Shown here one piece after another: positions 4,498 through 43,994 of a stretch of 63,202 nucleotides of DNA (the first letter of the stretch is position 1; each line of letters starts with the position of its first letter). Origin of the DNA: a virus. Its lineage: Duplodnaviria; Caudoviricetes. A program made the position numbers and the translations under genes. The DNA is taken from the IMG/VR virus record IMGVR_UViG_3300030329_003706, positions 1 to 63,202 of that record, one strand, 5' to 3'. The notes beneath the pieces are model-generated. The model had not been told where the DNA came from and ran no database searches. It saw nothing but the letters and a program-made list of their open reading frames with translations.

Positions 4498-4508
4498 TTA
4501 TTTATCCT

Positions 4509-4979: not shown

Positions 4980-4994
4980 ATCTATTCTCCTTTA

Positions 4995-24210: not shown

Positions 24211-24250
24211 ACAATAACAGTTAAGCTGTCTTGTGATAACTCTTTTATTT
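24211..24250 (-). promoter_or_regulatory. Phage promoter TTATCA-N17-TATTGT
   Basis: Family member. Confidence 0.6.
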
Positions 24251-27388: not shown

Positions 27389-27432
27389 ATATTACTACAG
27401 CATTTGTCGTATGATAAGTCTTATTTGTTCTT
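27389..27432 (-). promoter_or_regulatory. Phage promoter TTATCA-N17-TAATAT
   Basis: GATAAGTCTTATTTGTTCT on the + strand. Confidence 0.7.
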
Positions 27433-27816
27433 GTATTTTCTTAAAACGCCCTCAATATCAGGAGGTTTGTAGCTTGGTCCTTTGAGTATTTTGCCATCTT
27501 TACGATAAATAGGTTTTCCCTCGTCATCAAGTTTTGACATATTGCTTTTATGAACTTCTGTGAATAATGGATCAAGGTCTATGCCAAAAGAGTGACCAAT
27601 CCCGTAAACAACATATAGTAAATCGGTTAAGCCATCAGCAATACCTATTATATCTTTTTCTGCTAGTGCTTTATAGAACTCTGCTAATTCTTCCTCTAGC
27701 AATAGCATACCAAGTTTTGAGGTATCTTCATCAGGAAAGGTTGGTGTGTCGTGGACTTTATGCCCGAAAGTCTTCATAAATATTTTTACTTTCCCAGAGT
27801 TTGAAAAACCTGTCAT
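27421..27816 (-). CDS. MazG-like/PRA-PH-family nucleoside triphosphate pyrophosphohydrolase
   Basis: EELAE...ADGLTDLLYVVYG...EVHKSNMSK...RKDGKILKGP. Confidence 0.85.
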   Translation of the reverse strand: MTGFSNSGKVKIFMKTFGHKVHDTPTFPDEDTSKLGMLLLEEELAEFYKALAEKDIIGIADGLTDLLYVVYGIGHSFGIDLDPLFTEVHKSNMSKLDDEGKPIYRKDGKILKGPSYKPPDIEGVLRKYKNK

Positions 27817-30765: not shown

Positions 30766-31135
30766 AAAACAAAGAGCAGAGGCAAAAATGTTTAGTGGTA
30801 TAGAAAAACATTGTGAAAATAACACCTCTGCTCCAACAGATTTGGGTAGAACTTTTCAAGCTAAACGCAAACTCAACCAGAAAGGAATGTTCTACCCAAG
30901 CCTAGTATAAGAATAACAAATAAAAGCATCGTTGATAAGTCTTATTTGTTCTTATTTATTCCGCTAAAAAGAGGGGAGCAAAAGTAGAAAGGAATGTTAA
31001 AACTATGCAAATTAACAGATTTGCTCCCCAAGTGAGCAGTAATTGGAGATTAAAAGCCCTCAAAGTTTAAGAAAGCTACTTTCGTGTCCACCAACGAAAA
31101 ACTCTTCCTTTAACTAACCGTGCTTTTAATTCACA
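30766..31135 (-). ncRNA. Putative small-RNA cassette of large-loop hairpins
   Basis: No ORF. Stems at 30774-30833, 30842-30899, 30973-31029 and about 31049-31130, lying directly downstream of promoters 30910 and 31142. Confidence 0.55.
30910..30960 (-). promoter_or_regulatory. Phage promoter TTATCA-N17-TATTCT
   Basis: GATAAGTCTTATTTGTTCTTATTTATT on the + strand. Confidence 0.7.
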
Positions 31136-31141
31136 CTATAA

Positions 31142-31191
31142 ATAATACACTATTTTTTATCTATGATAAGTCTTATTTGCTCTTATTTATT
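31142..31191 (-). promoter_or_regulatory. Phage promoter TTATCA-N16-TATTAT
   Basis: GATAAGTCTTATTTGCTCTTATTTATT on the + strand. Confidence 0.7.
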
Positions 31192-31389
31192 CTTCCAAGT
31201 AGAACCTATTAAGAATCCACACTCTGCACAAGAAATACCTCCTTCTTGTTTGGGCTTTTCTTCCTCTGTCACAAGGTGAAAAACATTACTCCCACAAAGA
31301 GAACACATTAAAACTCTCACTTGTTTTTCTTCTACGGTAGGTTTAGTCTCTCTCCTGAAGGGGATTACATTACTTTTTTGCTTTTCCAT
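31183..31389 (-). CDS. Small Zn-ribbon protein
   Basis: CSLCG...CAECG. Confidence 0.6.
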   Translation of the reverse strand: MEKQKSNVIPFRRETKPTVEEKQVRVLMCSLCGSNVFHLVTEEEKPKQEGGISCAECGFLIGSTWKNK

Positions 31390-31433
31390 ATCTGACCTTT
31401 TTATTGCCTGTAATAATACACCATATTAAGCAA

Positions 31434-31646
31434 TTAGCTCGTTGACTTTTCCTTTTTGTTCCTTTTTTGTTGTTTTTTGCCCTTATTATTGAATAAATCA
31501 GGAGAAATCACCGAGTTTTTCGCTTCTTTTTGCATTTCTTTCCATGCTTTTAACACTTCTGGCTTGAGAAATCGTACATGTTTGACCCTTTTATCAGGTT
31601 CTATTTTTTTCAACGCAAATTGTTCTTCCAGTGAGGTTTTTGTCAT
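31434..31646 (-). CDS. Hypothetical basic protein
   Basis: AAGGA RBS. Confidence 0.45.
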   Translation of the reverse strand: MTKTSLEEQFALKKIEPDKRVKHVRFLKPEVLKAWKEMQKEAKNSVISPDLFNNKGKKQQKRNKKEKSTS

Positions 31647-31658
31647 TTTATTTCCTTT

Positions 31659-31907
31659 TCAGTTCATTACAAATTTAGTATAGCAGTCTTTACAATAGCT
31701 TGATGTGGGTATGGCTACTTCTCCACATTCACATTTAAGAGCTCCGTTTAACAACACACGGTGACAAGCACCACAATAGACATCAGTTTTATGATCATCC
31801 TCATAAATTCTGCCTCTTGTTTGTTCTCCACAATAATCACAACTTATAAAGGTTTTCCAATGTCGTTTGTACCGTAGAGGGTTCTTTATTTTTGAGGGTA
31901 ATTGCAT
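31659..31907 (-). CDS. Small Zn-finger protein
   Basis: CDYC, CGAC, CEC and CKDC motifs; AGGAG RBS. Confidence 0.6.
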   Translation of the reverse strand: MQLPSKIKNPLRYKRHWKTFISCDYCGEQTRGRIYEDDHKTDVYCGACHRVLLNGALKCECGEVAIPTSSYCKDCYTKFVMN

Positions 31908-32472
31908 TTATAATCTCCTGTACTTGCTGAAATTCATCCAGTTTTCTATAGTTTTCTTGCAAATAGTTAATTCCCTTTATGAAAACATCTTCCGCAAGAG
32001 AATTTCCTGTTTGCATTAGTCTATAACAATGGAGAATAAGTTCAAGCTTATCTGCTATATCGCATAAAGATTTTTCAAGCACCGTTACTTTATAGATTCT
32101 ACTACCCACCCCTATTTTATCTTCATGGTCGTTTTCCACTTGTTCCATTAATTTATTCAGCTGTGGGTATTTCCACTTAGTCGTTGCAGGCATATCCCCT
32201 GTTTCTGCTTCTGCCACATCATGATACATTAGGTGAATCATGCAGTTTTTACTTACGTCAGGAAAAAGTGTTTGTAAAATAACCATCGCCCTCCATGTAT
32301 GAGCGGCGACATTCTGCCCCTCTGATAACTCTGGTCGAGTATGGTAGCGAACAACATGTCCTGCTTTTAGACGTTCGTGTAGTCTTTGCAAAATAAGTGC
32401 TTTGCTGAATTTAAGTCGTATTGATTTTAAGTCAACATCTGGCTGTGTTGACTCTTGAGTCCTCTTGTCCAT
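31837..32472 (-). CDS. HD-domain phosphohydrolase (YfbR-like 5'-deoxynucleotidase)
   Basis: VVRYHT...QNVAAHTW...YHDVAEAETGDMPATTK...ADKLE. Start placed at the GGAG-preceded ATG 32472 (track start 32508). Confidence 0.85.
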   Translation of the reverse strand: MDKRTQESTQPDVDLKSIRLKFSKALILQRLHERLKAGHVVRYHTRPELSEGQNVAAHTWRAMVILQTLFPDVSKNCMIHLMYHDVAEAETGDMPATTKWKYPQLNKLMEQVENDHEDKIGVGSRIYKVTVLEKSLCDIADKLELILHCYRLMQTGNSLAEDVFIKGINYLQENYRKLDEFQQVQEIINAITLKNKEPSTVQTTLENLYKL

Positions 32473-34343
32473 GGCTTCTCCGTAAATGTTTGTTTTGCCT
32501 CCCCCCAATTTGGTCCAAATTCAGCGTCAACTACTGAGGGAACTTCTAGTTGGACGCAGTTTTCCATGATTTCTGTGATTTGTTTAGCCTGTTGTTCGTC
32601 CTCTACAGAAATATCTAGTTCATCGTGAACTTGAATCATGGGTAGTATACCTTCTTCCGCTAATGCGACCATCGCCGCTTTTGTTTGATCAGCCGCTGAC
32701 CCTTGTATCAGTTTATTCAAGGCTTTATATGTAAACGCTCTTTTGATGGCAGGACCATGCTCTCCGTAAGCTTCTTGGTAGCTCATGGGTTTCCAACTTC
32801 CATATTTGTTAGGCTCCCATTTATCGAATCTACAACGCCTCCCTAACAAAGTGCGTATAACCCCCCGATTACTCGCTCTATTTGAGGTGTATTCACTTAA
32901 TTCTCTTACAAAAGGCACTTTGTCGTGGTAGGTGGAGAATAAATCTTGAGCATCTTCGTATTCGAGTCCTAAACTAGCGGCGAGTTTCTTACTTCCCATA
33001 CCATAAAACAGTCCTAAGTTAATGTCTTTGGCTTGTTTGCGTGGAACTCCTACAATATCAGCCGCCATTTGGTGGAAATCTGTTCTTGCGTTTTGGTTGT
33101 ATTGCTCAGAGAACTCTGAAGCCCCTCTGAACCCCATCAACTTAGCATAATGAACAACTATGCGTGGTTCTTGGCTAGAGTAGTCGAACGCACCCCATAA
33201 GGCTCCTTCTTCTGGTAAGAATAGGCTACGTATCATTGGTCCAATTTCACCATGCCTAGCAGGGATTTGTTGTAGGTTTGGATTGCTGTAGCTAAACCTA
33301 CCTGTGACTGTACCCCCTTGATCGCTTCTCAAGGGGTGTAGCTCAGCGTGAATACGTCCATTCACCTGATGTTTTAAAACGGTGTCTACAAAAGTAGACC
33401 TTGCTTTTTGATATTCACGAGCCTGCACTATCATTTTAGGTATTTCATGGGGGTGATTAGCTAAAAATCCTTTAGTAAAAGAAGGAGCTTCGGTTTTTTC
33501 TGTTTTGGTGTAGCTAAGATTTAAAGAATCAAACACTTTTGCCACACTTTCGGCTGACCAGATTTCTACTGCAACCCCTGTCTTTTTAAGAATAGTCGTT
33601 AGAAGATTATTTTCCCTAACTAATAAATCTTCTTTTATCTTCTCTGCTTTGTCTAGGTCTACTCTAACTCCTCTTTGTCTCATAGGAATAATGGTTTTTA
33701 AAACTTTAAGCTCTAAATTAAAGATATCCTGAATGTCCTCCTTAATAATTAAGGATTTAAAGTGCTTCCATAACCTTAATGTAAGCGAGGCATCTTGTTC
33801 TGCGTATTTGCCTACATGAGCCGCAGGGAGTTTATACATTTCGCTTTTTGCATTTACTCCAAAAGCTTCGGCGGCTTCTCTTAATTCAACCTCACTTTTA
33901 CGCTCTTGTAGGTAATCTCTTCCCAAAGCATTTAGAGCATAACTAAACCTGTTCTCATCTAGTAAAGGAGCAACAACCATTGTGTCAACAATTCTGCCGT
34001 GAATGGTTACGTTTTCAGCGAGTAACCAACCGACATCGTAAGGAGCATTGTGGAAAATGTAATCTCGGTCTATTTTACAAACAGAAGCTAACCACTTTAA
34101 TGTCATATCGGGATCGAAATTAGGTCCGATTTCGTGGCGAATGGGAAAATACCATTGGTCTCCTTCTACAGCTACGGCTACTCCTATTATACAGCCATCT
34201 TTTCTAGCCCAACCACTTCCCATAGAGGAAAGATTAGGATCTTTGGTTTCAAGATCTATTGATACTTCTTTAGCATGACTTAAATCTGGGTAGCCATCTG
34301 GCATAACCCATTCAGTCGGGGGTTGAAATAGGGGGTACTGCAT
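32427..34343 (-). CDS. polA: DNA polymerase family A with 3'-5' exonuclease
   Basis: DLET, HNAPYD and YAEQD exonuclease motifs; TGRFS..NPNLQQIP; DYSSQEPR; RKQAKDINLGLFYG; VHDEL. Confidence 0.97.
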   Translation of the reverse strand: MQYPLFQPPTEWVMPDGYPDLSHAKEVSIDLETKDPNLSSMGSGWARKDGCIIGVAVAVEGDQWYFPIRHEIGPNFDPDMTLKWLASVCKIDRDYIFHNAPYDVGWLLAENVTIHGRIVDTMVVAPLLDENRFSYALNALGRDYLQERKSEVELREAAEAFGVNAKSEMYKLPAAHVGKYAEQDASLTLRLWKHFKSLIIKEDIQDIFNLELKVLKTIIPMRQRGVRVDLDKAEKIKEDLLVRENNLLTTILKKTGVAVEIWSAESVAKVFDSLNLSYTKTEKTEAPSFTKGFLANHPHEIPKMIVQAREYQKARSTFVDTVLKHQVNGRIHAELHPLRSDQGGTVTGRFSYSNPNLQQIPARHGEIGPMIRSLFLPEEGALWGAFDYSSQEPRIVVHYAKLMGFRGASEFSEQYNQNARTDFHQMAADIVGVPRKQAKDINLGLFYGMGSKKLAASLGLEYEDAQDLFSTYHDKVPFVRELSEYTSNRASNRGVIRTLLGRRCRFDKWEPNKYGSWKPMSYQEAYGEHGPAIKRAFTYKALNKLIQGSAADQTKAAMVALAEEGILPMIQVHDELDISVEDEQQAKQITEIMENCVQLEVPSVVDAEFGPNWGEAKQTFTEKPWTRGLKSQHSQMLT

Positions 34344-34512
34344 TTCGTTTTATCCTCATTGATTGTTTACATCTTTTACAGATGGGAAATTTGTTTTTTA
34401 ATGCTCGAAAGGTAATTATCTTACTTGTTCCACAGTCATCACACACGGCTCTAATTGTGTTATCTAGTTTTCCATTCGCACCTGTCTTCACGAAACATAT
34501 CCTCCTCTTCAT
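34312..34512 (-). CDS. Small Zn-ribbon protein
   Basis: CDDC...CKRC. Confidence 0.5.
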   Translation of the reverse strand: MKRRICFVKTGANGKLDNTIRAVCDDCGTSKIITFRALKNKFPICKRCKQSMRIKRNAVPPISTPD

Positions 34513-34882
34513 GAGATATTCTACTAGGGTGATCTAAACCATCTGTATCATAAGACTCATGGTTATTATCCTTTCTAAGAATTTCTGCTTCTACAAGCAT
34601 AAGATACCTGCGTAAATCTTTGATATCATCAATAACACCCTCTGGTCGAGTATCTAACTGAGCTGTTTTGAATATATCATAGTTATGCTCCGTGACTTGC
34701 TTTTCAAGCCTGTCCCATTTACGAGCAAGCATCATAAACGCCCCTACACCTCCACGCTGTTTCCAGCTGTCACCGTAGCTTTGTTCAGATTTATGCAACC
34801 CTTCTACATCTTGCTTTGCTACTTTTTCTACAAGTGCTATCATCGTGCTGTATTGTGTCATTTTTTCCTCCTTTTTAACCAT
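34460..34882 (-). CDS. Nucleotide-modification-associated all-alpha protein (Nmad1/DUF1599-like)
   Basis: SYGDSWKQRG...ARKWDRLE...DDIKDLRRY; adjacent to the TS homologue. Confidence 0.6.
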   Translation of the reverse strand: MVKKEEKMTQYSTMIALVEKVAKQDVEGLHKSEQSYGDSWKQRGGVGAFMMLARKWDRLEKQVTEHNYDIFKTAQLDTRPEGVIDDIKDLRRYLMLVEAEILRKDNNHESYDTDGLDHPSRISHEEEDMFREDRCEWKTR

Positions 34883-35835
34883 TCAACACACGCCTTACGC
34901 CATGCTCTGTCTTCTATTTTAAAAGCATACTTAAAAGCCGAACTCATATTCTTTTGTTTCCACATATGCCACGATTTTCTCATCATAGCCGCCGTCTTGC
35001 CCAAGAATTCATTTTTATAATTGAATAAATCTTCATCTATAAACCATTTTTGCAATTCTTCATCAAAACAACTTGGGTCTGAAACAATAGGGGGAGAACT
35101 GTAACTCAACCCATCATCCGCAATGGTGAGGTAAGGTTCTCTGTCTATTTGCATACCGTCTAACTTTTTTAAAGGCTCTACATAGGCATGAAGATTATTA
35201 CTGAATTGGTAATAGTCGCCCACCTTACAGCCTGTCATAGATGCCATATACTCTTGCAGTATAGACATATGCACAGCATTAGCTCCATAAGCTCCCCATA
35301 TCATATCATTACTACGATTAACTACTGTCATGTGAAGTTCACTTTTTCGTTTCCAAAAGAAGATTTGTGTATTACAGGGGTGATCTTTACCACCATTACT
35401 TCTATGGAGGTCTTGTATGGGATCCCACATATTTATAACCACTCTCCTATCGTTGGGATAAGTGGTTAATCTAAATATGGCAATTTCTAACTGATCTTTA
35501 CCAAACCATGTTCTCCACCTGTAACCGTAAGCTCCATGTGAAGTTATTCCATCATCACTGTATTCCACCATTCGCTTATTGTAGTTTTGTATAAACTCTA
35601 CATCGTTTCTACCTGCTAACATCCAAAGGGATTCCATTAAATGGAAATAGGGGTTAGCGTCCCTTTCTGGATAAAACAATACTCTTTCTCTACTGTGTGT
35701 ATAGGTCGTTACAACTGGACCAGGAAACTCCAATGCTAACCCATTACGAGTTTCCACTTCTATACCTGAAGATTCTAAAGCATCTTTGCCTATGGCTAAA
35801 GCTTCACTAACATTACGAACCCATATTTCTTGCAT
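34858..35835 (-). CDS. Thymidylate synthase-family enzyme, probably dUMP hydroxymethylase
   Basis: ETRNG, HGAYGYRWR, catalytic KDHPCN, NRSND..WGAYGAN (Asn, dUMP-type) and NLHAY; lies in the modification cluster. Confidence 0.85.
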   Translation of the reverse strand: MQEIWVRNVSEALAIGKDALESSGIEVETRNGLALEFPGPVVTTYTHSRERVLFYPERDANPYFHLMESLWMLAGRNDVEFIQNYNKRMVEYSDDGITSHGAYGYRWRTWFGKDQLEIAIFRLTTYPNDRRVVINMWDPIQDLHRSNGGKDHPCNTQIFFWKRKSELHMTVVNRSNDMIWGAYGANAVHMSILQEYMASMTGCKVGDYYQFSNNLHAYVEPLKKLDGMQIDREPYLTIADDGLSYSSPPIVSDPSCFDEELQKWFIDEDLFNYKNEFLGKTAAMMRKSWHMWKQKNMSSAFKYAFKIEDRAWRKACVEWLKRRKK

Positions 35836-36508
35836 CTGCTACATCCTTTCTTATCCAACAACTGTTAGGTTCAATGAGTTTAGGCAATGAACCTTTTTTA
35901 TTTGCAACTCTTTCAGTCCACTTTAATAAGTATCCCTTAGAACGTAAAAGCTCCCACTTTCGCTGTTTTATTTCTTCCTGCTCCTCTCTATACTCTTTAG
36001 TGGTATTGCCCTTAATAGCTACATAATCTTCTGTGATTATTTCTTCTGGAAACACTTGCCAACTGTAAGCAGATAATATGTTTTTATCATTGCCTTCTGT
36101 ATCTATCTTTAATATGTCCACATGGGTAATATTGTGTTCCTTGAATAAAGTGTCTAAAGTTTTAAGGGGAACAGTTTGATACTCATCTGTTAAATGCTGT
36201 GAAATATATTCGGTGTCCTTTAATAAAGAAGAACGCATACATTTTTCTTTTTGTGCAGGACTACGTCTGTTCATAAATCCATATTTCCCCATATATAATT
36301 TACCTACACCATCTTCATTGCTTATGGCACAATGTTCATACTTGAAATCACACCCCGATAAGCTTTTAAATATTTCCTCTTTTAAATGAATATTGGGTTC
36401 TACCATCAAACCAAACCATTTTTCTCTTTTACGATGCAATAACTTATTAGCTAGAGATAATGTTCTGGCATTAAAGCACCCAATGTCTACAATTACCTTT
36501 TTGTTCAT
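35813..36508 (-). CDS. FkbM-family SAM-dependent methyltransferase
   Basis: VDIGCF, VEPN, CAIS, TLDTL and DILKIDTEG motifs. Start placed at the AGGAGG-preceded ATG 36508 (track start 36553). Confidence 0.85.
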   Translation of the reverse strand: MNKKVIVDIGCFNARTLSLANKLLHRKREKWFGLMVEPNIHLKEEIFKSLSGCDFKYEHCAISNEDGVGKLYMGKYGFMNRRSPAQKEKCMRSSLLKDTEYISQHLTDEYQTVPLKTLDTLFKEHNITHVDILKIDTEGNDKNILSAYSWQVFPEEIITEDYVAIKGNTTKEYREEQEEIKQRKWELLRSKGYLLKWTERVANKKGSLPKLIEPNSCWIRKDVADARNMGS

Positions 36509-36582
36509 ATAACGCCTCCTCGACGTAGTTAGTGGTTTTGCTACCCTGTACACCTAAAAAGGCGTAGAGGGGGTCGAGTGGC

Positions 36583-37677
36583 TTAAATACGCCCCTCAAA
36601 AAAGCTTAAATACTGTTTTCCTATAACTTTTGGGCTGTGTAGAGCTAATGCCTTGCTACCGTTCTCTCTATAAAAAGATAAAGGCGTTGAAGTAGAAGAG
36701 TACTGTGTTCCCATCACTCCTGCGTTAGATGCTACTCCCATACTCTTTCTGGGTATAGAATCGTTGGGGGAATCTATACTGTTTATAAGTTCAGCTAATT
36801 CTTCTGCTGTGCTTACGACTAAACAATTGATATCTGGCTTCATATCGTCTGGCTCATCCAGTAACCACTTAGAATGAATAATAGGAATACATCCTGCGTT
36901 CCATGCTTCAAGCCAAGTGTACTGTGTTCCCCCTCCATCGCCTACTATTTGGGTCATATCTACATTAAAGATATATTTTTTCATAAGGTTAAACGCATGA
37001 TCATTTTCTCTTGGGTAGTGAGCCTTAGACTGTACCCATTCAGGATACTTAGGCACTATCTTAAAGCGAGTGTATATTCTGTTTTCAAATCCCCTTATGT
37101 TTATTTTCTTGTTATCTGGTAATAAACGGTTAGCATCAAGCAAAACTTCTGTGTGCTTATCAAAATCTATTCTAGAAGTACTGATAGCAATTCCTCCACG
37201 AGTGCTTATATTGTTTGGGGTTTGAGAAGTAAAGGGGGAGTAGGGGTGTCTTATGAAAGTAGAACCCTTTAATGTCCTTGCCCCAATTTGTCTTATACTG
37301 ATACACCTATTGGGATCTAAGTTTTCAGGCAAGTTTTTCAACTCAGTAGGATCATGCACCACTATGAAAGCACCGTTGTCATATAGCTGTTGTGTTTGTT
37401 CCTTGAACTGTTTGGCTCCTGCGACAACAAGCTTAATCTCTGATCGCATAGAATTACTTGAAAAGTTACCATTGTATTTGTTAAAAACATCATCCAAAGA
37501 AATGTTTTGGTACTTTTTCCCATACCCAAAATCTCTTTGAAACTTTTCTGATTTTGGACGAACCTTGTAAAGATAAGGGGTAATCCCCACTTCTTTTAGT
37601 GCGTCCATAAGGTGACTGGTATAAGTTACCCAACCTCCATAGGGATTGGGACTTAAATAAAATAAATTTGCTCTCAT
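36583..37677 (-). CDS. GT-B fold glycosyltransferase
   Basis: N-terminal YGGWVTY, HDPTE, SRIDFDKH and GGGTQYTWLEAWNAGCIPI (GT4-like E.x.G motif). Confidence 0.75.
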   Translation of the reverse strand: MRANLFYLSPNPYGGWVTYTSHLMDALKEVGITPYLYKVRPKSEKFQRDFGYGKKYQNISLDDVFNKYNGNFSSNSMRSEIKLVVAGAKQFKEQTQQLYDNGAFIVVHDPTELKNLPENLDPNRCISIRQIGARTLKGSTFIRHPYSPFTSQTPNNISTRGGIAISTSRIDFDKHTEVLLDANRLLPDNKKINIRGFENRIYTRFKIVPKYPEWVQSKAHYPRENDHAFNLMKKYIFNVDMTQIVGDGGGTQYTWLEAWNAGCIPIIHSKWLLDEPDDMKPDINCLVVSTAEELAELINSIDSPNDSIPRKSMGVASNAGVMGTQYSSTSTPLSFYRENGSKALALHSPKVIGKQYLSFFEGRI

Positions 37678-38579
37678 TCTATTTTTCCTTTTATTGAATC
37701 TGTAAATGTTTGTTTGTACAAGCTACGAGGCTTACCCTCACCTAGCCTAACTCTTTCGTACTTGTCCCACTCACATAGGCTATGTTCAATAGTACGCATA
37801 TCTATGTCTGATTCAGAACAAATTAATTGACCATACTCTCGCTTGTATTGAAGCAAGAACCACATTTCTTCATTAGCTTGTTTTTGGCTTATCGTTTTGT
37901 TGAGGGGGCGTTCCCCAATCCTGTTAAGACCGCGAATTGCTCCAGGTCCTGCGTTTGCCCAAGTAAAACGGTCTTTTGGGCATGGTAACACAGATGTGTA
38001 GTTGAGGTCGGAAACGACCTCGTATGACATAAAACCTCCCCCTCCCCACCCTTTATAGGAAGCCATCGCATTGTGGAGACTTTGCAAGGAATTTGTTTGG
38101 GACGCCACAATAGCAAGTTTTTCCTTGTCTCGCCAGATTGGGGATAAGAAGTGGTCAACTACTACCTCCGATTTCCTAAGTTTAAGACCCTGATTCGTAA
38201 TTATATACGCTCCAGTAAATGTCCGTAAACCCTTATCTAATCTTCTTTCTATGATTTCTTTGGTGCGAGTAGGATCCCACTCTGTTACCCACCCATGTTC
38301 CTCAGCAAACTCTATAGTACCCACCATTCTAAACAAACAGCAATTAAATATTATTTCGCCATGATCACGATTATGGTTTAAATCAGTCCAGTTCCTACGC
38401 ATCCAAACGGTTACTCTATCGTTTTCCCTAAATGGATTAGTGAACTTATATTTTTGTAATATAGGGTCAGTAGTCCAAGGAGGAGGTTTACCCTCTAGCC
38501 TACGTTGATATATACGATGCCGTTCTGTTATCCAATCATATAACAAACAGGCATTTAATCTAGCTTCTTTTTCAAACAT
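37674..38579 (-). CDS. aGPT-Pplase1 / 5-hmdU DNA kinase-like protein
   Basis: ERHRIY..R..G.PPPWT.DPILQKYKFTN.FRE.DRVT, FTGAY, GFMSYEVVSD, GPGAIRGL and IEHSLCEWDKY motifs. Confidence 0.85.
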   Translation of the reverse strand: MFEKEARLNACLLYDWITERHRIYQRRLEGKPPPWTTDPILQKYKFTNPFRENDRVTVWMRRNWTDLNHNRDHGEIIFNCCLFRMVGTIEFAEEHGWVTEWDPTRTKEIIERRLDKGLRTFTGAYIITNQGLKLRKSEVVVDHFLSPIWRDKEKLAIVASQTNSLQSLHNAMASYKGWGGGGFMSYEVVSDLNYTSVLPCPKDRFTWANAGPGAIRGLNRIGERPLNKTISQKQANEEMWFLLQYKREYGQLICSESDIDMRTIEHSLCEWDKYERVRLGEGKPRSLYKQTFTDSIKGKIE

Positions 38580-38601
38580 ACTTCTCCCTTTCTATGAAGT
38601 G

Positions 38602-38632
38602 GTGTGGCTACATTGTAATATAGTAGCCACAC
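38602..38632 (-). terminator. Hairpin between the DUF932 gene and the modification operon
   Basis: GTGTGGCTAC...GTAGCCACAC; no clear T-run, so it may be a processing or stability hairpin. Confidence 0.5.
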
Positions 38633-38651
38633 TAGGACAATAATTACTTTA

Positions 38652-39683
38652 TCAAGCTACTGAGGCATATTCAAGAACCTTGCTTAGTGCTTTTCGCTTG
38701 GTGTTCGCACCTGCCCCGAACCATGCTGAATGCAAAGCATTCCCTTCAGCGTGTGAGCGTTTTTGGTGATCCATAACATAGGTAACACCATTTAGTACTC
38801 CCCACCAAGTCCCTAAGGCAGATTCCATATTAGCTCCAGGGGAAATTTCTATTGCTTCATAAACGAGCTCTGCTGTGTGCTTAAACTGATCTCGCATTGG
38901 AACATTTACCTCTGCTGAACTTTCTGCTTTGCCTCGTTCAATAAGTAAGTTTGGTTGGAACAACTCAGCAATAAAGTTATCTACATCAAAAGGTTTTGCC
39001 TTTTTACTAGCTAAAAACTCTGATTGTTCTTGGAACACTTTCATTTGCTGACCACTAATACCTAATGCCTCCTCAGCGGCTTTCTGTATTTCTTCGTCAA
39101 ACATTTGTAAATGCAATACTCGGAAACGGTTGCCTTCTATGTTAAGAGCTTGTGTTAGAGTATTATTACAAACAACTCTTATAGGTGTGAACATAATAGT
39201 CATTGCTTTACCTACCTGATGGCTATTGTTCAGTAATAAATAACCTTGTACGTCATCGTTTCCTGGAAGCCTGAATTTATCAGTAAGTTTAGCTAACCCC
39301 CACACATCTTTACCCTCTTTTAAGCTTCCTGCTGTTTCCATTGTCATTTGTCCTGCTTCGGTAAACTTTTTGAAAAACTTCATTACCTCTGCGTTTTGGA
39401 ACGGAACATAGCTATCACCACAAGAAGAAAGCACTTTGTTGTCTGAGTCTCGAACTAAAAAGTAACTTTCAGGAGCACGAATAAATCCTGCTTCTCCTGT
39501 TGGGTCGATGATATTCCAACAATCTGGCTTATCTACCGTGTAAGCAGGACGTTTGGAAACTGTCCAATCGATTTGTGCTTCGACCAACATTTGTTCAGGG
39601 GTCATTTGATTGCTAACTTTTTTACCTAGCCCATGCCAAGGAACTTGTCCTGCATAAGCCATTGTTTCAATTTCGTGTGCCAT
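38652..39683 (-). CDS. DUF932-family protein (phage/plasmid-like TIGR03299)
   Basis: MAHEIETMAY.G.VPWHGLG, ETAGSL, TPIRVVCNNTL and GTWWG..NGVT..DH motifs. Confidence 0.88.
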   Translation of the reverse strand: MAHEIETMAYAGQVPWHGLGKKVSNQMTPEQMLVEAQIDWTVSKRPAYTVDKPDCWNIIDPTGEAGFIRAPESYFLVRDSDNKVLSSCGDSYVPFQNAEVMKFFKKFTEAGQMTMETAGSLKEGKDVWGLAKLTDKFRLPGNDDVQGYLLLNNSHQVGKAMTIMFTPIRVVCNNTLTQALNIEGNRFRVLHLQMFDEEIQKAAEEALGISGQQMKVFQEQSEFLASKKAKPFDVDNFIAELFQPNLLIERGKAESSAEVNVPMRDQFKHTAELVYEAIEISPGANMESALGTWWGVLNGVTYVMDHQKRSHAEGNALHSAWFGAGANTKRKALSKVLEYASVA

Positions 39684-39960
39684 GTGTATCTCCTTTCTCT
39701 GAGTTATTAGGCATATCTATATACGGTAAAGTTTCATATGTTTTATAAGGAACATCGAGCAATACTTGGTCATTGCCACCAAGTAAAACCTGACAACGCA
39801 TTTCTACATCGTTATGGGACATATTCCATGCAACAGGGTATAGATTCCCTGCTTCCAACCATTCAAACACTTTTGGGTCAATTGAACGATTACGCTTACT
39901 GCGAATCGCTTCTTTATTTGCCTCTTGTAAGGCATCTTTAGTAAAATACTTCACTTGCAT
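39667..39960 (-). CDS. Hypothetical protein
   Basis: AGGAG RBS; promoter at 39994. Confidence 0.6.
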   Translation of the reverse strand: MQVKYFTKDALQEANKEAIRSKRNRSIDPKVFEWLEAGNLYPVAWNMSHNDVEMRCQVLLGGNDQVLLDVPYKTYETLPYIDMPNNSEKGDTHGTRN

Positions 39961-39993
39961 TTCTTTCTCCTGTGCTAGTTAGTAACAATTATT

Positions 39994-40043
39994 AATATAC
40001 ACCCAACCTTTTACATTGATAATTCTTATTAATTCTTATTTAC
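39994..40043 (-). promoter_or_regulatory. Phage promoter TTATCA-N17-TATATT upstream of the DUF932/modification/polA operon
   Basis: Family member with two AATAAGA boxes. Confidence 0.7.
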
Positions 40044-41561
40044 TCAGGCTGTTAACGAATACCCTTGACTGAACATAGGGTGTATTAAATGTAGCCTATC
40101 GGTAGCTCTTGTTAATCCCACATAAAAAACTCTAGCCTCGTCATCTTCGTAGTTATTAATCTTCCTCCACATACTGTATGGTCTTCTCATTGTATCTGTT
40201 AAAAGCATTACATTTGTAGCTTGAGCTCCTTTAGCAGAATGAATGGTAGAGATTCGTATTCTAGGAGTCTTAGTTAAACTTTCTCCTTTTCGCAAACAAG
40301 CCTTTATGTAAATTCTATCTCTTTCACTTATTTTGCCTAACCCTGTCTCCCATGAATGGGAGTGTAATAGTCCATGATCCTTTTGCAAATCTTCTAAACT
40401 ATAGAAAACACCATCTTCACCATCAGGCATTGTTTTACTGCCATAGGTAATTTGACTATTCAACATCATATGTTTATACACAAGTCGTACTTGATCAGCA
40501 TCTAACCTGTTTCCTTGCCTAAGTGATTCCCACAACCTAACAGCCTCTAGTACTCTACTATCTATACTCTTTGAGCCGTTATAAATATATAGGTGTCCTC
40601 TTCTGCGAACTTCTTCCTCTATTTGTTGAGCTCCACGAGTGGTTCTGCTTAACAGTAGCCAATCCCCACTACTTAAATCAACTTCTTCAGAATGACGATG
40701 CCAATAAATATTTCCTTCTATTTCTTTTGGTTGAAAAATCTTTTCTCTTCTTCCTACTATAGTTTTTATTACATGATGACTAAGCTTGTGATGAGAAGAT
40801 GGAATCCTGTAGGACTTATCTAGTAGAGTTACTTTACCCTCTAATCCCACAAAATGTTCTACATCTGCTCCTGCATAACGAAAAATAGCTTGGTCATCAT
40901 CTCCTGCTACATAGCAGATTTTACTGTTTTGTTCTAGCATATTAACCATCTCCCATTGAATGGGAGACAAATCCTGTGCTTCGTCAATAAACACAGCTTC
41001 TAACTTTGGGCAAAGACCGTTTTCAATAAATGTTTCAAGCATACCTGCATAGTCTTGTAAGCCATAAGAAGTTTTCCAATATGCCAAACCACGAGCAACA
41101 TATTCTACTCTAGCCCAGTCCGTTTTCAAAGGCACAGTGCTATCGTTGTATATCTTGCGTAAAGGTTGGCGTAATACCCGAGCCATGTTTATAATTTCTA
41201 AAAACTTATCGCCATAACCAAAGTCCTTGTACGGACCTTGCTCCATAACTGTTCCTGTGTAGAATTTTCCTATCTTTAACCAATCAGCCACTTCTTGATA
41301 TTTTTCAGGCGTAATGATTTGGGAGTGTGTTAACCCTGACATCATAAAGGCAAGACTGTGTAATGTCCTAAAATAGGGGAGCTCTTTCTTTGATAAATTA
41401 AACTTTTCACATGCTCGGTCTACTGCCTCTGTTGCGGCTCTTCTTGTAAAGGCAAAATAGCCTATTCTATCAGGAGCGACTCCTGAGGTTAAATACTGCT
41501 CTACTAAACTGAGTAGTTTTGTTGTTTTTCCTGTTCCAGGAGGACCTAATACAATCTGCAC
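40044..41561 (-). CDS. UvrD/Rep-like SF1 helicase
   Basis: GPPGTGKT, DEAQD, GDDDQAIF, STIHSAKG and YVGLTRA motifs. Confidence 0.93.
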   Translation of the reverse strand: MQIVLGPPGTGKTTKLLSLVEQYLTSGVAPDRIGYFAFTRRAATEAVDRACEKFNLSKKELPYFRTLHSLAFMMSGLTHSQIITPEKYQEVADWLKIGKFYTGTVMEQGPYKDFGYGDKFLEIINMARVLRQPLRKIYNDSTVPLKTDWARVEYVARGLAYWKTSYGLQDYAGMLETFIENGLCPKLEAVFIDEAQDLSPIQWEMVNMLEQNSKICYVAGDDDQAIFRYAGADVEHFVGLEGKVTLLDKSYRIPSSHHKLSHHVIKTIVGRREKIFQPKEIEGNIYWHRHSEEVDLSSGDWLLLSRTTRGAQQIEEEVRRRGHLYIYNGSKSIDSRVLEAVRLWESLRQGNRLDADQVRLVYKHMMLNSQITYGSKTMPDGEDGVFYSLEDLQKDHGLLHSHSWETGLGKISERDRIYIKACLRKGESLTKTPRIRISTIHSAKGAQATNVMLLTDTMRRPYSMWRKINNYEDDEARVFYVGLTRATDRLHLIHPMFSQGYSLTA

Positions 41562-43983: not shown

Positions 43984-43994
43984 GTACTTTCTCC

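What the first reader, a model, noticed from the sequence alone, without database searches (positions are those of the whole stretch)
34460..38579. Thymidine hypermodification operon pairing a 5-hmdU DNA kinase-like gene with a glycosyltransferase and an FkbM methyltransferase
Seen: contiguous genes for aGPT-Pplase1/HMUDK-like, GT-B glycosyltransferase, FkbM methyltransferase, TS homologue with dUMP-type Asn and Nmad1-like, followed closely by polA and an HD nucleotidase. Established: in ViI, M6 and phiW-14-type pathways, 5-hmdU is incorporated, phosphorylated on DNA by HMUDK, then substituted by an amino acid:DNA transferase (aGPT-Pplase2). I recognise no such transferase here. Inference: the 5-(phospho)methyl-dU is instead glycosylated and the sugar O-methylated, giving a base I do not know to have been described.
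Basis: partly seen in the sequence, partly recalled or inferred. Interest (0 to 1): 0.9.

Follow-up and report, generated by a model that had tools for sequence, protein, structure and literature searches.

The report
Kinase-free sugar tagging of phage thymine

Summary
The five genes are at the stated coordinates, on the minus strand, and run on into PolA and an HD nucleotidase. HMM, structure and residue checks confirm four of them. They are a standalone aGPT-Pplase1 (Pfam "HMUDK_hel"), a GT-B glycosyltransferase, an FkbM methyltransferase, and a thymidylate-synthase homologue with the published dUMP-hydroxymethylase signature. "Nmad1-like" for the fifth gene is only a weak lead.

The "kinase-like" label misleads. 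The Pplase1 protein is a helix-hairpin-helix glycosylase-fold protein with no P-loop. This complete 63-kb genome has no 5-hmdU DNA kinase and no amino acid:DNA transferase; both searches rang in phage M6 as a positive control. A phospho-intermediate therefore has no basis.

Best reading: 5-hmdU is incorporated into DNA and glycosylated directly, as in base J or T4. FkbM probably O-methylates the sugar.

Support from relatives: of 79 IMG/VR loci with this glycosyltransferase, 40 pair it with Pplase1 and 38 with the TS homologue. In 21 others it sits beside a TET/JBP dioxygenase, the other route to hydroxymethylpyrimidine.

Pplase1 keeps a Cys-centred motif resembling the catalytic one of the transferase family. 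It appears only with the pre-replicative route. Its role is open.

This scan has found the same kind of cluster on other genomes at least 14 times. I found no chemical report of the product.

The parts
37674..38579 (-). aGPT-Pplase1 (Pfam HMUDK_hel), 301 aa. It is a standalone helix-hairpin-helix glycosylase-fold protein with no kinase domain. Cys269, Glu270 and Lys273 are invariant.
   Evidence: PF18723 1.1e-51. 34% identical to M6 gp55. No Walker A. Model pLDDT 90.4. VIA-align top match is PaMx11 PUGT 8z2m at Z 10.3, followed by QNG1 and HhH DNA glycosylases. Invariant columns.
36583..37677 (-). GT-B (GT4-like) glycosyltransferase, 364 aa, in no Pfam or PHROG family. Candidate 5-hmdU DNA glycosyltransferase.
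   Evidence: No HMM hit. Model pLDDT 90.1, pTM 0.90. Foldseek matches: HepE 6.9e-10, glycogen synthase, BshA, MshA, PimB', and T4 alpha-glucosyltransferase 1y6f/1y6g at 1e-7. 369 homologues at E<=0.001. 291 IMG/VR stretches.
35813..36508 (-). FkbM-family SAM methyltransferase. It is 231 aa from the ATG at 36508; the longer GTG frame starts at 36553. Candidate sugar O-methyltransferase.
   Evidence: PF05050 2.1e-12. TIGR01444 1.1e-12, above its cut-off. AGGAGG lies 6 nt before the ATG. Homologues in 6 of 79 loci.
34858..35835 (-). Thymidylate-synthase homologue, 325 aa, with the dUMP hydroxymethylase signature.
   Evidence: PF00303 1.4e-21 and phrog_5131 3.9e-102. 44% identical to M6 gp58. Positions by E. 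coli ThyA numbering: C146=C, N177=N, L143=D, D169=D. Best PDB sequence match is the CMP hydroxymethylase MilA. All ThyA equivalog models score far below their cut-offs.
34460..34882 (-). 140-aa protein of unknown family, possibly a distant DUF1599 relative. It is conserved next to the TS homologue in 24 of 79 loci.
   Evidence: No Pfam hit at E<=1. PF07659 finds nothing. Atlas lead: DUF1599 on 11-25% of members of the matched clusters. Locus counts.
32427..34343 (-). Family A DNA polymerase with a 3'-5' exonuclease domain.
   Evidence: PF00476 8.4e-64 and PF01612 1.1e-07.
31837..32508 (-). HD-domain, YfbR-like 5'-deoxynucleotidase. It is a homologue of M6 gp59 and probably depletes thymidine nucleotides.
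   Evidence: PF12917 1.8e-10. 32% identical to M6 gp59, E 1e-11. A terminator-like hairpin lies just downstream at 31775-31757.
27421..27816 (-). MazG/PRA-PH-like nucleotide pyrophosphohydrolase. It lies outside the operon and is a candidate dTTP/dUTP pyrophosphatase of the pre-replicative arm.
   Evidence: PF01503 1.9e-17. phrog_671 5.3e-40. The function is inferred by analogy with the dTTPase/dUTPase gp18 of phage SH-Ab 15599 (PMC13458397, passages of section 43).

Best explanation
This is a kinase-free, sugar-type thymine hypermodification operon.

Pre-replicative arm (inferred from homology and residue signatures):
1. The TS homologue converts dUMP to 5-hydroxymethyl-dUMP.
2. Host kinases make the triphosphate.
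3. The HD nucleotidase, and probably the MazG-like pyrophosphatase, run down thymidine nucleotides.
4. The phage PolA incorporates 5-hmdU in place of T.

Post-replicative arm (inferred from fold, gene linkage and the contexts of relatives):
1. The GT-B glycosyltransferase transfers a sugar from a host NDP-sugar directly onto the free 5-hydroxymethyl oxygen of hmU in DNA. T4 glucosyltransferases do this on hmC and JGT does it on hmU. No phosphate activation is involved.
2. The FkbM methyltransferase then O-methylates that sugar. This is a lineage-specific tailoring step. Sister phages lack it or replace it with a radical SAM/SPASM enzyme, a second glycosyltransferase or another FkbM type.

aGPT-Pplase1 is a helix-hairpin-helix, base-flipping-type protein related in fold to the amino acid:DNA transferase. 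It keeps a Cys-centred motif that resembles the transferase's catalytic motif. It is a fixed partner of the TS homologue rather than of the glycosyltransferase, and its reaction is unknown.

The product would be a base-J-like 5-(glycosyloxymethyl)uracil, here probably methylated, that shields the DNA from host nucleases.
For: Shown by tools:
- Gene families and order. ATGA coupling of Pplase1 and the GT.
- The TS homologue has catalytic Cys, Asn at N177 (dUMP), Asp at L143 and Asp kept at D169. This holds in the window, in M6 gp58 and in 36 of 36 metagenomic homologues.
- PMC13326640 (sections 24 and 28 read) ties an acidic residue at L143 to hydroxymethyl products, N177 to dUMP, and D169N to 5-hydroxylases.
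- 44% identity to the TS homologue of M6, a phage whose modified T derives from 5-hmdU (PMC8989533 abstract).
- The GT has a GT-B fold at pLDDT 90. Its matches include T4 alpha-glucosyltransferase bound to HMU-containing DNA (1y6g). They also include BshA and MshA, the same PDB neighbours reported for phage GT-B enzymes shown to glycosylate 5hmC (bioRxiv 10.1101/2023.12.21.572611, section 8 passages).
- No kinase and no transferase in the complete genome, with positive controls on M6.
- Relatives: of 79 IMG/VR loci with this GT, 40 have Pplase1, 38 the TS homologue, and 0 an M6-type kinase or ADDT by blastp.
- PF18748 is found in 0 of 40 of those records, 11 of which are at least 90% complete. 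PF18724 is found in 0 of 40 above its cut-off.
- In the other 39 loci, 21 have a Tet_JBP dioxygenase next to the GT and 14 a ParB. This is the post-replicative route to hydroxymethylpyrimidine, so two independent contexts point to the same acceptor.
- The GT tree separates the two contexts into two clades, except for L047.
- Sugar-related accessory genes sit inside sister operons. A cytidylyltransferase plus mannose-6-P-isomerase cupin occurs in 7 loci, TAGT in 4, and a second FkbM type in 4.
- The cultured Brevibacterium phage LuckyBarnes has TS-GT-GT-Pplase1 with GTs unrelated in sequence and no PF18748.
Against: - No chemistry: nothing here shows the DNA is modified at all.
- The GT matches no curated family, and its closest solved structures act on small molecules, lipids or glycans rather than DNA. 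T4 AGT ranks only 25th to 31st.
- The donor sugar is unknown, and this genome has no NDP-sugar gene that I found. tblastn with the sister-locus cytidylyltransferase/cupin gives nothing. I did not run Pfam on every ORF of the structural half.
- FkbM is present in only 6 of 79 related loci plus the window. FkbM-family enzymes methylate varied acceptors, so a sugar O-methylation is inference.
- The L143 rule is a correlation reported in a paper, not a proof of product.
- Pplase1 has no assigned step in this scheme, so the scheme may be incomplete.
- The Tet_JBP neighbours of the sister clade could be 5mC rather than T dioxygenases. I did not test for nearby C5-methyltransferases.
Confidence: 0.55

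Rival explanations
1. The HMUDK-like protein phosphorylates 5-hmdU on DNA, and the glycosyltransferase then displaces or decorates the 5-phosphomethyl group.
For: Pfam names the family '5-hmdU DNA kinase, helical domain'. In SP10 the domain is fused to the kinase (PMC5889632, Table 3: gp186N and gp186C).
Against: - The protein has no Walker A motif.
- It matches PF18723 only. The kinase family PF18748 is absent from the genome at E<=10, and M6 gp54 finds nothing. Both searches ring in M6.
- The fold is that of an HhH glycosylase, not a P-loop.
- Leloir-type GT-B enzymes transfer to hydroxyl nucleophiles, not to phosphate esters acting as leaving groups (established knowledge).
Confidence: 0.03
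2. Pplase1 is the key DNA-modifying enzyme, not a bystander. It uses its invariant cysteine to attack C6 of hmU, or of glycosyl-hmU, as the amino acid:DNA transferase does. It then either converts part of the hmU back to thymine or exchanges the C5 substituent. On this view the final DNA carries a mix of T and sugar-T set by sequence context, or a base other than a simple O-glycoside.
For: - Best structural match is the 5-PmdU glycinyltransferase PUGT (Z 10.3, 220 residues aligned).
- Leu268-Cys269-Glu270 and Lys273 are invariant in 27 of 27 sequences.
- The window motif E-H-S-L-C lines up with E-T-V-L-C of M6 gp51. In PUGT this motif is Glu243/Thr244 (metal) and Cys247 (nucleophile), per PMC11472151, sections 14 and 22 passages.
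- Pplase1 is present in 37 of the 38 TS-homologue loci; the exception, L018, is cut just upstream. It is present in 0 of 24 dioxygenase-type records searched.
[quoted passage not shown] I saw no enzyme named for the thymidine branch in the passages read.
Against: - The hhalign match is not significant (E 0.058, 21 columns), so the motif equivalence is inference.
- Glu265 is Gln in 9 of 27 sequences and His266 varies.
- M6 gp55 and ViI gp160 were not needed for the reconstituted steps (PMC8989533, section 16 passages).
- Without a kinase there is no good leaving group on hmU.
- Most dioxygenase-type records are fragments. Only 3 of the 24 are at least 90% complete, and 14 were not held.
Confidence: 0.2
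3. The glycosyltransferase and FkbM act on something other than DNA, such as host surface glycans, a virion protein or a small molecule. They merely ride in the replication operon, and the DNA carries plain 5-hmdU or an unknown Pplase1 product.
For: The nearest solved structures are glycan, lipid or small-molecule GTs. Pyle et al. found that about 65% of phage GT contigs have no base-modification neighbour (bioRxiv 10.1101/2023.12.21.572611, section 9). FkbM is sporadic.
Against: - The GT start overlaps the Pplase1 stop.
- The GT stays next to Pplase1 and the TS homologue in 40 loci across GT identities from 82% down to about 35%, with gene order shuffled.
- The sister clade sits next to Tet_JBP in 21 loci.
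- An unrelated GT family occupies the same slot in LuckyBarnes.
Confidence: 0.1
4. The TS homologue makes a product other than 5-hm-dUMP, such as dTMP or a 5-hydroxy pyrimidine like the 5-hydroxy-dCMP synthases of RB69 and DLP3. The sugar would then go elsewhere, or directly onto a 5-hydroxyl.
For: TS homologues of phages have recently been shown to make 5-hydroxy-dCMP that is then glycosylated (PMC13326640, abstract and sections 24 and 28).
Against: - The diagnostic D169N substitution is absent: Asp is kept in the window and in 36 of 36 relatives.
- The substrate residue is Asn (dUMP), not Asp.
- L143 is Asp, not a bulky hydrophobic residue.
- ThyA equivalog models score 19-82 bits against cut-offs of 108-576.
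Confidence: 0.07

Closest known systems
Thymidine hypermodification clusters of Pseudomonas phages M6/YuA and PaMx11, also ViI, PhiW-14, SP10 and SH-Ab 15599 (PMC5889632, PMC8989533, PMC11472151, PMC13458397)
   Same: - TS homologue with the same active-site signature, 44% identical to M6 gp58.
- aGPT-Pplase1, 34% identical to M6 gp55.
- HD hydrolase, 32% identical to M6 gp59.
- PolA in the same neighbourhood and order.
- The logic is the same: incorporate 5-hmdU first, modify it on the polymer afterwards.
   Different: - No 5-hmdU DNA kinase, no amino acid:DNA transferase, no PLP, rSAM or FAD tailoring enzymes, and no Nmad5.
- A GT-B glycosyltransferase and an FkbM methyltransferase occupy that place.
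- The predicted linkage is an O-glycoside on the hydroxymethyl group, not a substitution of phosphate.
Base J of kinetoplastids (JBP thymine hydroxylase plus the JGT glucosyltransferase) and the phage T-dioxygenase/ParB/GT clusters (PMC13229309)
   Same: The predicted product class is a sugar on 5-hydroxymethyluracil in DNA. Homologues of this very GT family sit beside Tet_JBP, with or without ParB, in 21 of 79 loci.
   Different: - Here hmU is made before replication by a TS homologue, not by oxidation of T in DNA. tblastn with a Tet_JBP representative and a ParB representative finds nothing in this genome.
- JGT is described as GT-A-like in the preprint passages I read; this enzyme is GT-B.
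- Pplase1 is added here.
T4 alpha- and beta-glucosyltransferases and the phage GT-B DNA glycosyltransferases GT53, GT66 and GT94 (bioRxiv 10.1101/2023.12.21.572611; later Cell Rep 2024 per the reference list of PMC13229309)
   Same: GT-B fold. T4 AGT is among the Foldseek matches (1y6f, 1y6g at E 1e-7). BshA and MshA are shared top PDB neighbours (preprint section 8). The acceptor is a hydroxymethylpyrimidine in DNA.
   Different: - Those enzymes act on 5hmC.
- I detected no sequence relation; I did not hold the GT53, GT66 or GT94 sequences, so homology to them is untested.
- tblastn of this GT against 50,697 phage records, T4 presumably among them, finds nothing at 1e-5.
HTVC023P-type pelagiphage 'partner AMGs' TS plus aG/PT-PPlase1 (PMC9599517)
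   Same: That paper notes TS and Pplase1 side by side near PolA. In some genomes it also notes a 5'-deoxynucleotidase and a putative glucosyltransferase (passages of sections 7 and 10). This is the same gene set in marine podovirus-like genomes of about 60 kb.
   Different: It is reported there only as annotation. The paper does not note the missing kinase and transferase, does not mention FkbM (0 occurrences), and proposes no product.
Brevibacterium phage LuckyBarnes, NC_047851 (PMC6588365)
   Same: A cultured phage with TS homologue, two glycosyltransferases and Pplase1 in a row near PolA. No PF18748 kinase. Its TS homologue has the same N177=N and L143=D signature.
   Different: Its GTs are unrelated in sequence to this one. 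It has no FkbM and infects an actinobacterial host. The announcement calls the TS homologue a dCMP hydroxymethylase and reports no DNA chemistry (passage read).

Membership tests
5-hmdU DNA kinase (5-HMUDK, Pfam PF18748 HMUDK_HMUD1) | P-loop (Walker A) nucleotide kinase domain matching PF18748 | tested here: not met
   PF18748 gives no match at E<=10 in the six-frame search of the complete genome. M6 gp54 protein gives no match at E<=10. The 301-aa protein has no Walker A motif. Positive control: M6 scores 65.8 bits and gp54 7.7e-18.
aGPT-Pplase1 (Pfam PF18723 HMUDK_hel) | Full-length match to the family model above its gathering score | tested here: met
   176.4 bits against a cut-off of 25, covering model positions 7-278 of 281. 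34% identical to M6 gp55, which itself scores 8.1e-56.
aGPT-Pplase1 (Pfam PF18723 HMUDK_hel) | Helix-hairpin-helix DNA-glycosylase-like fold, as predicted by Iyer et al. 2013 and cited in PMC8989533 | tested here: met
   The model has pLDDT 90.4. VIA-align gives 23 chains at Z>=5, all of the PUGT, QNG1 or HhH-glycosylase kind; the top is 8z2m at Z 10.3, rmsd 4.1 over 220 residues. Caveats: the protein is all-helical and Foldseek alone gave no E<=0.001.
Amino acid:DNA transferase (ADDT, aGPT-Pplase2, PF18724) | Match to PF18724 anywhere in the genome | tested here: not met
   No match at E<=1. Positive control in M6: 159.7 bits. The Pplase1 profile finds no PDB sequence at E<=10.
GT-B glycosyltransferases (GT4-like, retaining) | Two Rossmann-like domains with the GT-B topology | tested here: met
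   pLDDT 90.1, pTM 0.90. Foldseek probability 1.00 to HepE, glycogen synthase, GlgM, BshA, MshA, PimB' and T4 AGT, with TM 0.54-0.64.
GT-B glycosyltransferases (GT4-like, retaining) | Sequence membership in a curated GT family (Pfam Glycos_transf_1 or similar) | tested here: not met
   No Pfam, PHROG or NCBIfam hit for the window protein. Only 2 of the 120 listed homologues carry a precomputed PF13524.
GT-B glycosyltransferases (GT4-like, retaining) | Nucleotide-sugar donor and a retaining mechanism | not testable with these tools
   Invariant Arg169, Lys174, Glu198 and Glu257 are compatible with the diphosphate- and sugar-binding residues of GT4 enzymes. That assignment rests on recall, not on a call.
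FkbM family methyltransferases | Match above the curated cut-off to PF05050 and TIGR01444 | tested here: met
   PF05050 47.9 bits against 22.7. TIGR01444 48.6 bits against 37.7.
FkbM family methyltransferases | O-methylation of a sugar hydroxyl as the reaction | not testable with these tools
   Inferred from what family members are known for (recalled) and from the GT next door. No PDB sequence relative at E<=1.
dUMP hydroxymethylase branch of the thymidylate synthase family | TS fold with the catalytic Cys and the phosphate-binding arginines | tested here: met
   PF00303 77.2 bits. C146, R21, R126, R127, R166, S167, E58 and Y94 are conserved.
dUMP hydroxymethylase branch of the thymidylate synthase family | Asn at E. 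coli N177 (dUMP rather than dCMP) | tested here: met
   Asn in the window, in M6 gp58 and in 36 of 36 relatives. Criterion from PMC13326640, section 24.
dUMP hydroxymethylase branch of the thymidylate synthase family | Acidic residue instead of Leu at E. coli L143 (hydroxymethyl rather than methyl product) | tested here: met
   Asp in the window, in M6 gp58 and in 36 of 36 relatives. The criterion is a correlation from PMC13326640, sections 24 and 28.
5-hydroxy-dCMP synthases (RB69 gp48 type) | Asn at E. coli D169 together with Asp at N177 | tested here: not met
   D169 stays Asp and N177 stays Asn.
Canonical thymidylate synthase ThyA | Score above an NCBIfam ThyA equivalog cut-off | tested here: not met
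   The best is TIGR03283 at 81.8 bits against 174.55. The other models score 19-64 bits against 108-576.
Nmad1 / DUF1599 (the 140-aa protein) | Match to PF07659 | tested here: inconclusive
   No Pfam hit at E<=1 and none in the six-frame search. The Atlas gives feature score 0.95 and TM 0.56/0.83 to viral clusters in which 11-25% of members carry DUF1599. That DUF1599 equals 'Nmad1' is my recollection.
Base J type pathway (TET/JBP hydroxylase plus GT) | A TET/JBP dioxygenase in the genome | tested here: not met
   tblastn of one Tet_JBP and one ParB representative from related loci against the window finds nothing at E<=0.01. PF12851 itself was not run on the genome.

The most novel reading that the evidence does not exclude
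aGPT-Pplase1 is an active, cysteine-dependent DNA base enzyme and the fixed partner of the pre-replicative hmU route.

It would decide the fate of each hmU. The leading candidate reaction is the long-missing conversion of hmU back to thymine at sites that are not to be modified. An alternative is preparation of hmU for the transferase.

If so, the operon writes a sequence-patterned mix of T and O-methyl-glycosyl-hmU. That base is not described for any DNA, and it would be made without any phosphate activation.
Probability: 0.15. Interest if true: 0.85.

Novelty: new variant of a known kind. Interest (0 to 1): 0.6.

Why it matters
- Every thymine hypermodification pathway solved so far starts with a DNA kinase and an amino acid or polyamine transferase. 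This operon, and the many like it in marine and other viromes, would make a sugar-type modified thymine by a shorter route.
- That would extend base-J-like chemistry from trypanosomes to phages, and here add a methylated sugar.
- Such DNA should resist restriction enzymes and may hamper sequencing and cloning. The enzymes could also become tools for labelling 5-hmU.
- The gene set is common: 291 IMG/VR stretches encode this GT family.
- It also isolates the one conserved component with no known job, aGPT-Pplase1, in a minimal setting where its function could be worked out.
- A cultured phage with the analogous set, LuckyBarnes, makes the question testable now.

Tried and rejected
**Searches that found nothing**
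- DNA search of the operon against 50,697 phage records, blastn distant mode: no match.
- tblastn of the GT against the same records: no match at 1e-5.
- Pplase1 by sequence against PDB: only chance-level hits. Its profile: none at E<=10.
- FkbM against PDB: none at E<=1.
- Foldseek of the Pplase1 model: no E<=0.001. VIA-align was then used.
- M6 gp61 (DUF3310) against the 140-aa protein: no similarity.
- Nmad5 (PF18757): absent.
- tblastn of sister-locus accessory genes against the window: only the FkbM cross-hit. The queries were c15, the cytidylyltransferase/cupin, TAGT, rSAM, c30, the Pyr_excise-like gene, Tet_JBP and ParB.
- Promoter and terminator scan of 31000-40200: not above shuffles, 22 promoter-like sites against 25.6 expected and 4 terminator-like against 6.7. 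I draw no operon boundary from it beyond noting a hairpin after the HD gene.

**Complex prediction.** Complex prediction on GT plus Pplase1 gave no answer: score 0.00, controls not run. This is neither for nor against binding.

**Idea dropped.** I considered that Pplase1 is a dedicated partner subunit of the GT. The GT family occurs without it in the dioxygenase context, so I dropped the idea.

**Literature.** Searches for a published glycosylated hmU from a phage of this kind returned none among the papers listed. The supplementary figures of PMC8989533, PMC13229309 and the Pyle et al. preprint may show clusters like this one.

**Not done**
- I did not run Pfam on all structural-half ORFs.
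- I did not test for C5-methyltransferases near the Tet_JBP loci.
- I did not inspect support values of the GT tree.
- I did not examine the GVMAG-type GT context beyond one Pfam call.

Full report
**What the window is.** The window is the whole of an IMG/VR virus record of 63,202 bases, rated 100% complete by CheckV. What is absent from the window is therefore absent from the assembled genome. Nearly all genes lie on the minus strand and GC is 35-43%.

**The observation.** Six-frame ORF listing puts five minus-strand ORFs exactly at 34460-38579. In the order of transcription:

| Coordinates | Length | Identification |
|---|---|---|
| 38579-37674 | 301 aa | PF18723 HMUDK_hel (formerly aGPT-Pplase1), E 1.1e-51; phrog_2396 |
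| 37677-36583 | 364 aa | no Pfam, PHROG or NCBIfam family |
| 36553-35813 | 246 aa | FkbM: PF05050 2.1e-12; TIGR01444 above its cut-off |
| 35835-34858 | 325 aa | thymidylate synthase family: PF00303 1.4e-21; phrog_5131 3.9e-102 |
| 34882-34460 | 140 aa | no family |

- PolA (34343-32427) and an HD/YfbR-like protein (32508-31837) follow.
- A DUF932 protein, a UvrD-type helicase and an AEP primase precede the cluster.
- The Pplase1 stop and the glycosyltransferase (GT) start overlap as ATGA.
- The FkbM gene most likely starts at the ATG at 36508, six bases after AGGAGG. Its homologues begin 9-17 residues inside the longer GTG frame.

**The glycosyltransferase.**
- A search of the 5.8-billion-protein collection gave 369 relatives at E<=0.001. 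Nearly all are unnamed and many come from marine surveys.
- An alignment of 62 of them gave an AlphaFold2 model with mean pLDDT 90.1 and pTM 0.90.
- Foldseek against the PDB returned 366 matches at E<=0.001, and the top of the list is uniformly GT-B glycosyltransferases. These include HepE (6.9e-10), archaeal glycogen synthase, GlgM, a methylmannose-polysaccharide mannosyltransferase, BshA, MshA and PimB'. T4 alpha-glucosyltransferase appears at ranks 25 and 31, one of its entries being a complex with DNA containing HMU.

**The 'kinase-like' gene is not a kinase.**
- In phage M6 the kinase and the Pplase1 are separate genes. gp54 (187 aa) matches PF18748 HMUDK_HMUD1. gp55 (323 aa) matches PF18723.
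- The window protein is 34% identical to gp55 and has no Walker A motif.
- A regular-expression scan of all six frames finds a Walker A in only one plausible gene, the UvrD-type helicase. The other four matches lie in ORFs with no NTPase annotation.
- PF18748 finds nothing in the genome at E<=10, and M6 gp54 finds nothing at E<=10.
- PF18724 (the amino acid:DNA transferase) finds nothing at E<=1, and Nmad5 finds nothing.
- The same tool finds PF18748 and PF18724 in M6, at 65.8 and 159.7 bits. The negatives therefore mean something.
- The Pfam name 'helical domain of the kinase' apparently reflects the SP10 fusion gp186N/gp186C listed in Table 3 of PMC5889632.
- In M6 and ViI the clade-1 proteins gp55 and gp160 could be left out of the reconstituted reactions (PMC8989533, section 16 passages).

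**The TS homologue.**
- It is 44% identical to M6 gp58.
- I aligned it with E. coli ThyA (fetched), M6 gp58, two cultured-phage homologues and 36 metagenomic homologues.
- The catalytic Cys146 and the phosphate-binding arginines are kept. Position N177 is Asn, L143 is Asp and D169 is Asp. This holds in the window, in M6 gp58 and in 36 of 36 metagenomic sequences.
- PMC13326640 (sections 24 and 28 read) gives the criteria. N177 sets dUMP against dCMP. A bulky hydrophobic L143 goes with methyl products and an acidic residue with hydroxymethyl products. D169N marks 5-hydroxy-dCMP synthases.
- By these criteria the enzyme is a dUMP hydroxymethylase, not a thymidylate synthase and not a 5-hydroxylase.
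- Consistent with that, the best PDB sequence match is the CMP hydroxymethylase MilA (1.6e-15) ahead of true TSs. All ThyA equivalog models score far below their cut-offs.
- The L143 rule is a correlation, so the product remains inferred.

**Nucleotide-pool genes.** The HD protein is a homologue of M6 gp59 (32% identity, E 1e-11). A MazG/PRA-PH-like pyrophosphohydrolase lies at 27421-27816. By analogy with the dTTPase/dUTPase of phage SH-Ab 15599 (PMC13458397, section 43 passages), these probably deplete dTTP and dTMP. That is inference.

**Relatives and context.** 291 stretches encode a relative, and the best 80 were kept as 79 loci. I ran blastp of the window's proteins and five M6 proteins against all ORFs of at least 60 aa in these loci, at E<=1e-5.

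| Protein | Loci with a match, of 79 |
|---|---|
| Pplase1 | 40 |
| TS homologue | 38 |
| PolA | 32 |
| HD | 29 |
| 140-aa protein | 24 |
| FkbM | 6 |
| M6 kinase | 0 |
| M6 ADDT | 0 |
| M6 Nmad5 | 0 |

- Family searches of the whole records behind the 40 Pplase1-bearing loci find PF18748 in 0 of 40, 11 of which are at least 90% complete.
- PF18724 is above its cut-off in 0 of 40. One 17.8-bit sub-threshold hit falls, by its coordinates, inside the Pplase1 gene of that record.
- Gene order varies. Pplase1 lies before or after the GT, and other genes are inserted, but the trio stays together.

**The other 39 loci.**
- Clustering the neighbours and running Pfam on representatives shows a Tet_JBP dioxygenase next to the GT in 21 loci and a ParB-N protein in 14. 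A terminase usually lies just downstream.
- This is the architecture described for phage T-dioxygenase pathways. There, GTs are the commonest neighbours (31%) and C5-methyltransferases are rare (6%) (PMC13229309, section 12 passage).
- PF18723 is absent from the 24 such records that could be searched. Fourteen were not held, and only 3 of the 24 are at least 90% complete.
- One locus in this group, L018, has the TS homologue but is cut just upstream of the GT.
- About 11 loci, several labelled GVMAG, have another context that I did not resolve.
- A FastTree of the distinct GT sequences, midpoint-rooted with supports not inspected, puts the TS/Pplase1-linked GTs in one clade, except L047, and the rest in the other.
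- One GT family thus sits beside two unrelated ways of making a hydroxymethylpyrimidine in DNA. This is the strongest computational argument that its acceptor is that base.

**Tailoring genes.**
- FkbM of the window's type occurs in 6 loci, all among the window's nearest relatives. It sits either between the GT and TS genes or after TS. The nearest sister lineages (L003 type, L010) lack it.
- Other loci carry a radical SAM/SPASM enzyme (18 loci, 15 of them with Pplase1).
- Four loci carry a TET-associated glycosyltransferase and four carry a second, distant FkbM type.
- Seven loci carry a cytidylyltransferase fused to a mannose-6-phosphate-isomerase cupin. Its best NCBIfam match is the GDP-mannose enzyme GMP_PMI, well below cut-off.
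- Sugar-nucleotide and sugar-tailoring genes inside these operons fit a glycan on the base. They also fit FkbM as an optional sugar O-methyltransferase. The window itself has none of the other accessory genes.

**Pplase1.**
- The model built from 27 sequences has pLDDT 90.4.
- Foldseek gives nothing at E<=0.001.
- An exhaustive VIA-align pass gives 23 chains at Z>=5. All belong to one kind: the 5-PmdU glycinyltransferase PUGT of PaMx11 (Z 10.3, 220 residues), the queuine salvage glycosylase QNG1 (9.5), and HhH DNA glycosylases (OGG, Mag1, AlkA, EndoIII, MutY; 5.5-9.4). The next rows drop to 4.9 and below.
- The tool warns that helical proteins reach such Z values easily. The coherence of the list is what carries weight.
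- Leu268, Cys269, Glu270 and Lys273 are invariant in 27 of 27 sequences.
- hhalign against M6 gp51 aligns only this stretch, E-H-S-L-C against E-T-V-L-C. The match is not significant (E 0.058, 21 columns).
- In PUGT, Glu243 and Thr244 hold the metal and Cys247 attacks C6 of the base (PMC11472151, sections 14 and 22 passages).
- I therefore think Pplase1 is probably an enzyme working on the flipped-out base rather than a passive subunit. This is inference.
- Its distribution ties it to the TS-homologue route, whichever downstream chemistry follows (kinase plus transferase in M6, GT here). It is absent from the dioxygenase route that uses the same GT family.
[quoted passage not shown] An enzyme for the thymidine branch would be needed only where hmU replaces T wholesale, and that matches the distribution.
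- This is the boldest reading, and I give it about 0.15.
- A complex prediction of GT with Pplase1 returned no verdict and is not evidence either way.

**Cultured handle.**
- tblastn of Pplase1 finds 427 phage records, mostly M6-like phages and Ackermannviridae.
- One is Brevibacterium phage LuckyBarnes. It has TS homologue, two glycosyltransferases and Pplase1 in a row near PolA and no PF18748.
- Its TS homologue has the same N177=N and L143=D signature. Its GTs are unrelated in sequence to the window's.
- Its announcement only remarks that the enzymes 'may modify its DNA' (PMC6588365, passage).
- An unrelated GT family in the same slot argues for function over ancestry.

**What is known already.**
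- PMC9599517 noted TS plus Pplase1, sometimes with a nucleotidase and a putative glucosyltransferase, in HTVC023P-type pelagiphages. It treated them as M6-like.
- Pyle et al. found GT-B-type phage GTs associated with ThyS in about 28% of contigs (preprint section 9).
- PMC13229309 predicts sugar-type T modifications downstream of T-dioxygenases.
- None of the passages I read reports the nucleoside. My four literature searches found no such report. Supplements were closed and subscription journals are mostly not held.
- Earlier notes of this scan describe the same kinase-free sugar cluster on at least 14 other genomes, two of them with FkbM. My results agree with them and were obtained independently here.

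**Verdict.**
- This is a new variant of a known kind of system. It is widespread, chemically untested, and has one conserved enzyme of unknown role.

Noticed in passing
L032, L041-L046, L048, L050-L053, L056, L057, L063, L066, L068, L070, L075-L078 (GT at about 8000 in most): Homologues of the window's glycosyltransferase sit in ParB - Tet_JBP dioxygenase - GT - small ORF - large terminase arrays (21 loci with Tet_JBP, 14 with ParB). This looks like the T-dioxygenase pathways of PMC13229309 placed next to the packaging genes.
   Followed up: partly
L058, L061, L062, L065, L067, L069, L072-L074, L080, L081: A third context for this GT family, several of the contigs labelled GVMAG. The order is an HD plus HD_assoc protein, three ORFs without any Pfam family, the GT, then a roughly 480-aa low-complexity protein. 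No TS homologue, Pplase1 or Tet_JBP lies within the flanks.
   Followed up: partly
L082 (Brevibacterium phage LuckyBarnes, NC_047851) 3843-7858: A cultured actinophage carries TS homologue, two GTs and Pplase1 without a PF18748 kinase. Its TS homologue has the dUMP (Asn) and hydroxymethyl (Asp at L143) signature, although its announcement calls it a dCMP hydroxymethylase.
   Followed up: partly
window 27421-27816 (-): A MazG/PRA-PH-like nucleotide pyrophosphohydrolase (PF01503 1.9e-17, phrog_671 5.3e-40) lies among small early genes. It is a possible dTTP/dUTP pyrophosphatase.
   Followed up: no
window 43180-44877 (-): Three consecutive genes match the Pam3 gp34-, gp33- and gp32-like families (PF23977 1.8e-64, PF23984 7e-31, PF23992 1.1e-26). 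They lie just upstream of the AEP primase. An SNF2-type helicase is the only large plus-strand gene, at 45300-46739.
   Followed up: no
window 38652-39683 (-) and 30326-30733 (-): A DUF932 protein (5.5e-45) lies immediately upstream of the operon and is conserved in that neighbourhood in 22 of 79 loci. A DUF6876 protein (1.6e-24) lies downstream. Neither has a known role.
   Followed up: no
L003-L011, L016, L017, L019-L021, L054 (ORF just upstream of Pplase1): A roughly 210-aa ORF without any Pfam family (cluster c15) precedes Pplase1 in 16 loci. It is absent from the window, where DUF932 abuts Pplase1.
   Followed up: partly
L033 8900-13200: One Pplase1-GT-TS locus also carries homologues of the M6 radical SAM (gp53) and PLP (gp52) enzymes between GT and TS, with no blastp match to the M6 kinase or ADDT in the locus. 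This is a hybrid of the sugar and amino-acid toolkits.
   Followed up: no
window 24245-24796 (-): A small terminase subunit gene (PF03592 3.2e-15) lies among the early small ORFs, far from the large structural genes.
   Followed up: no
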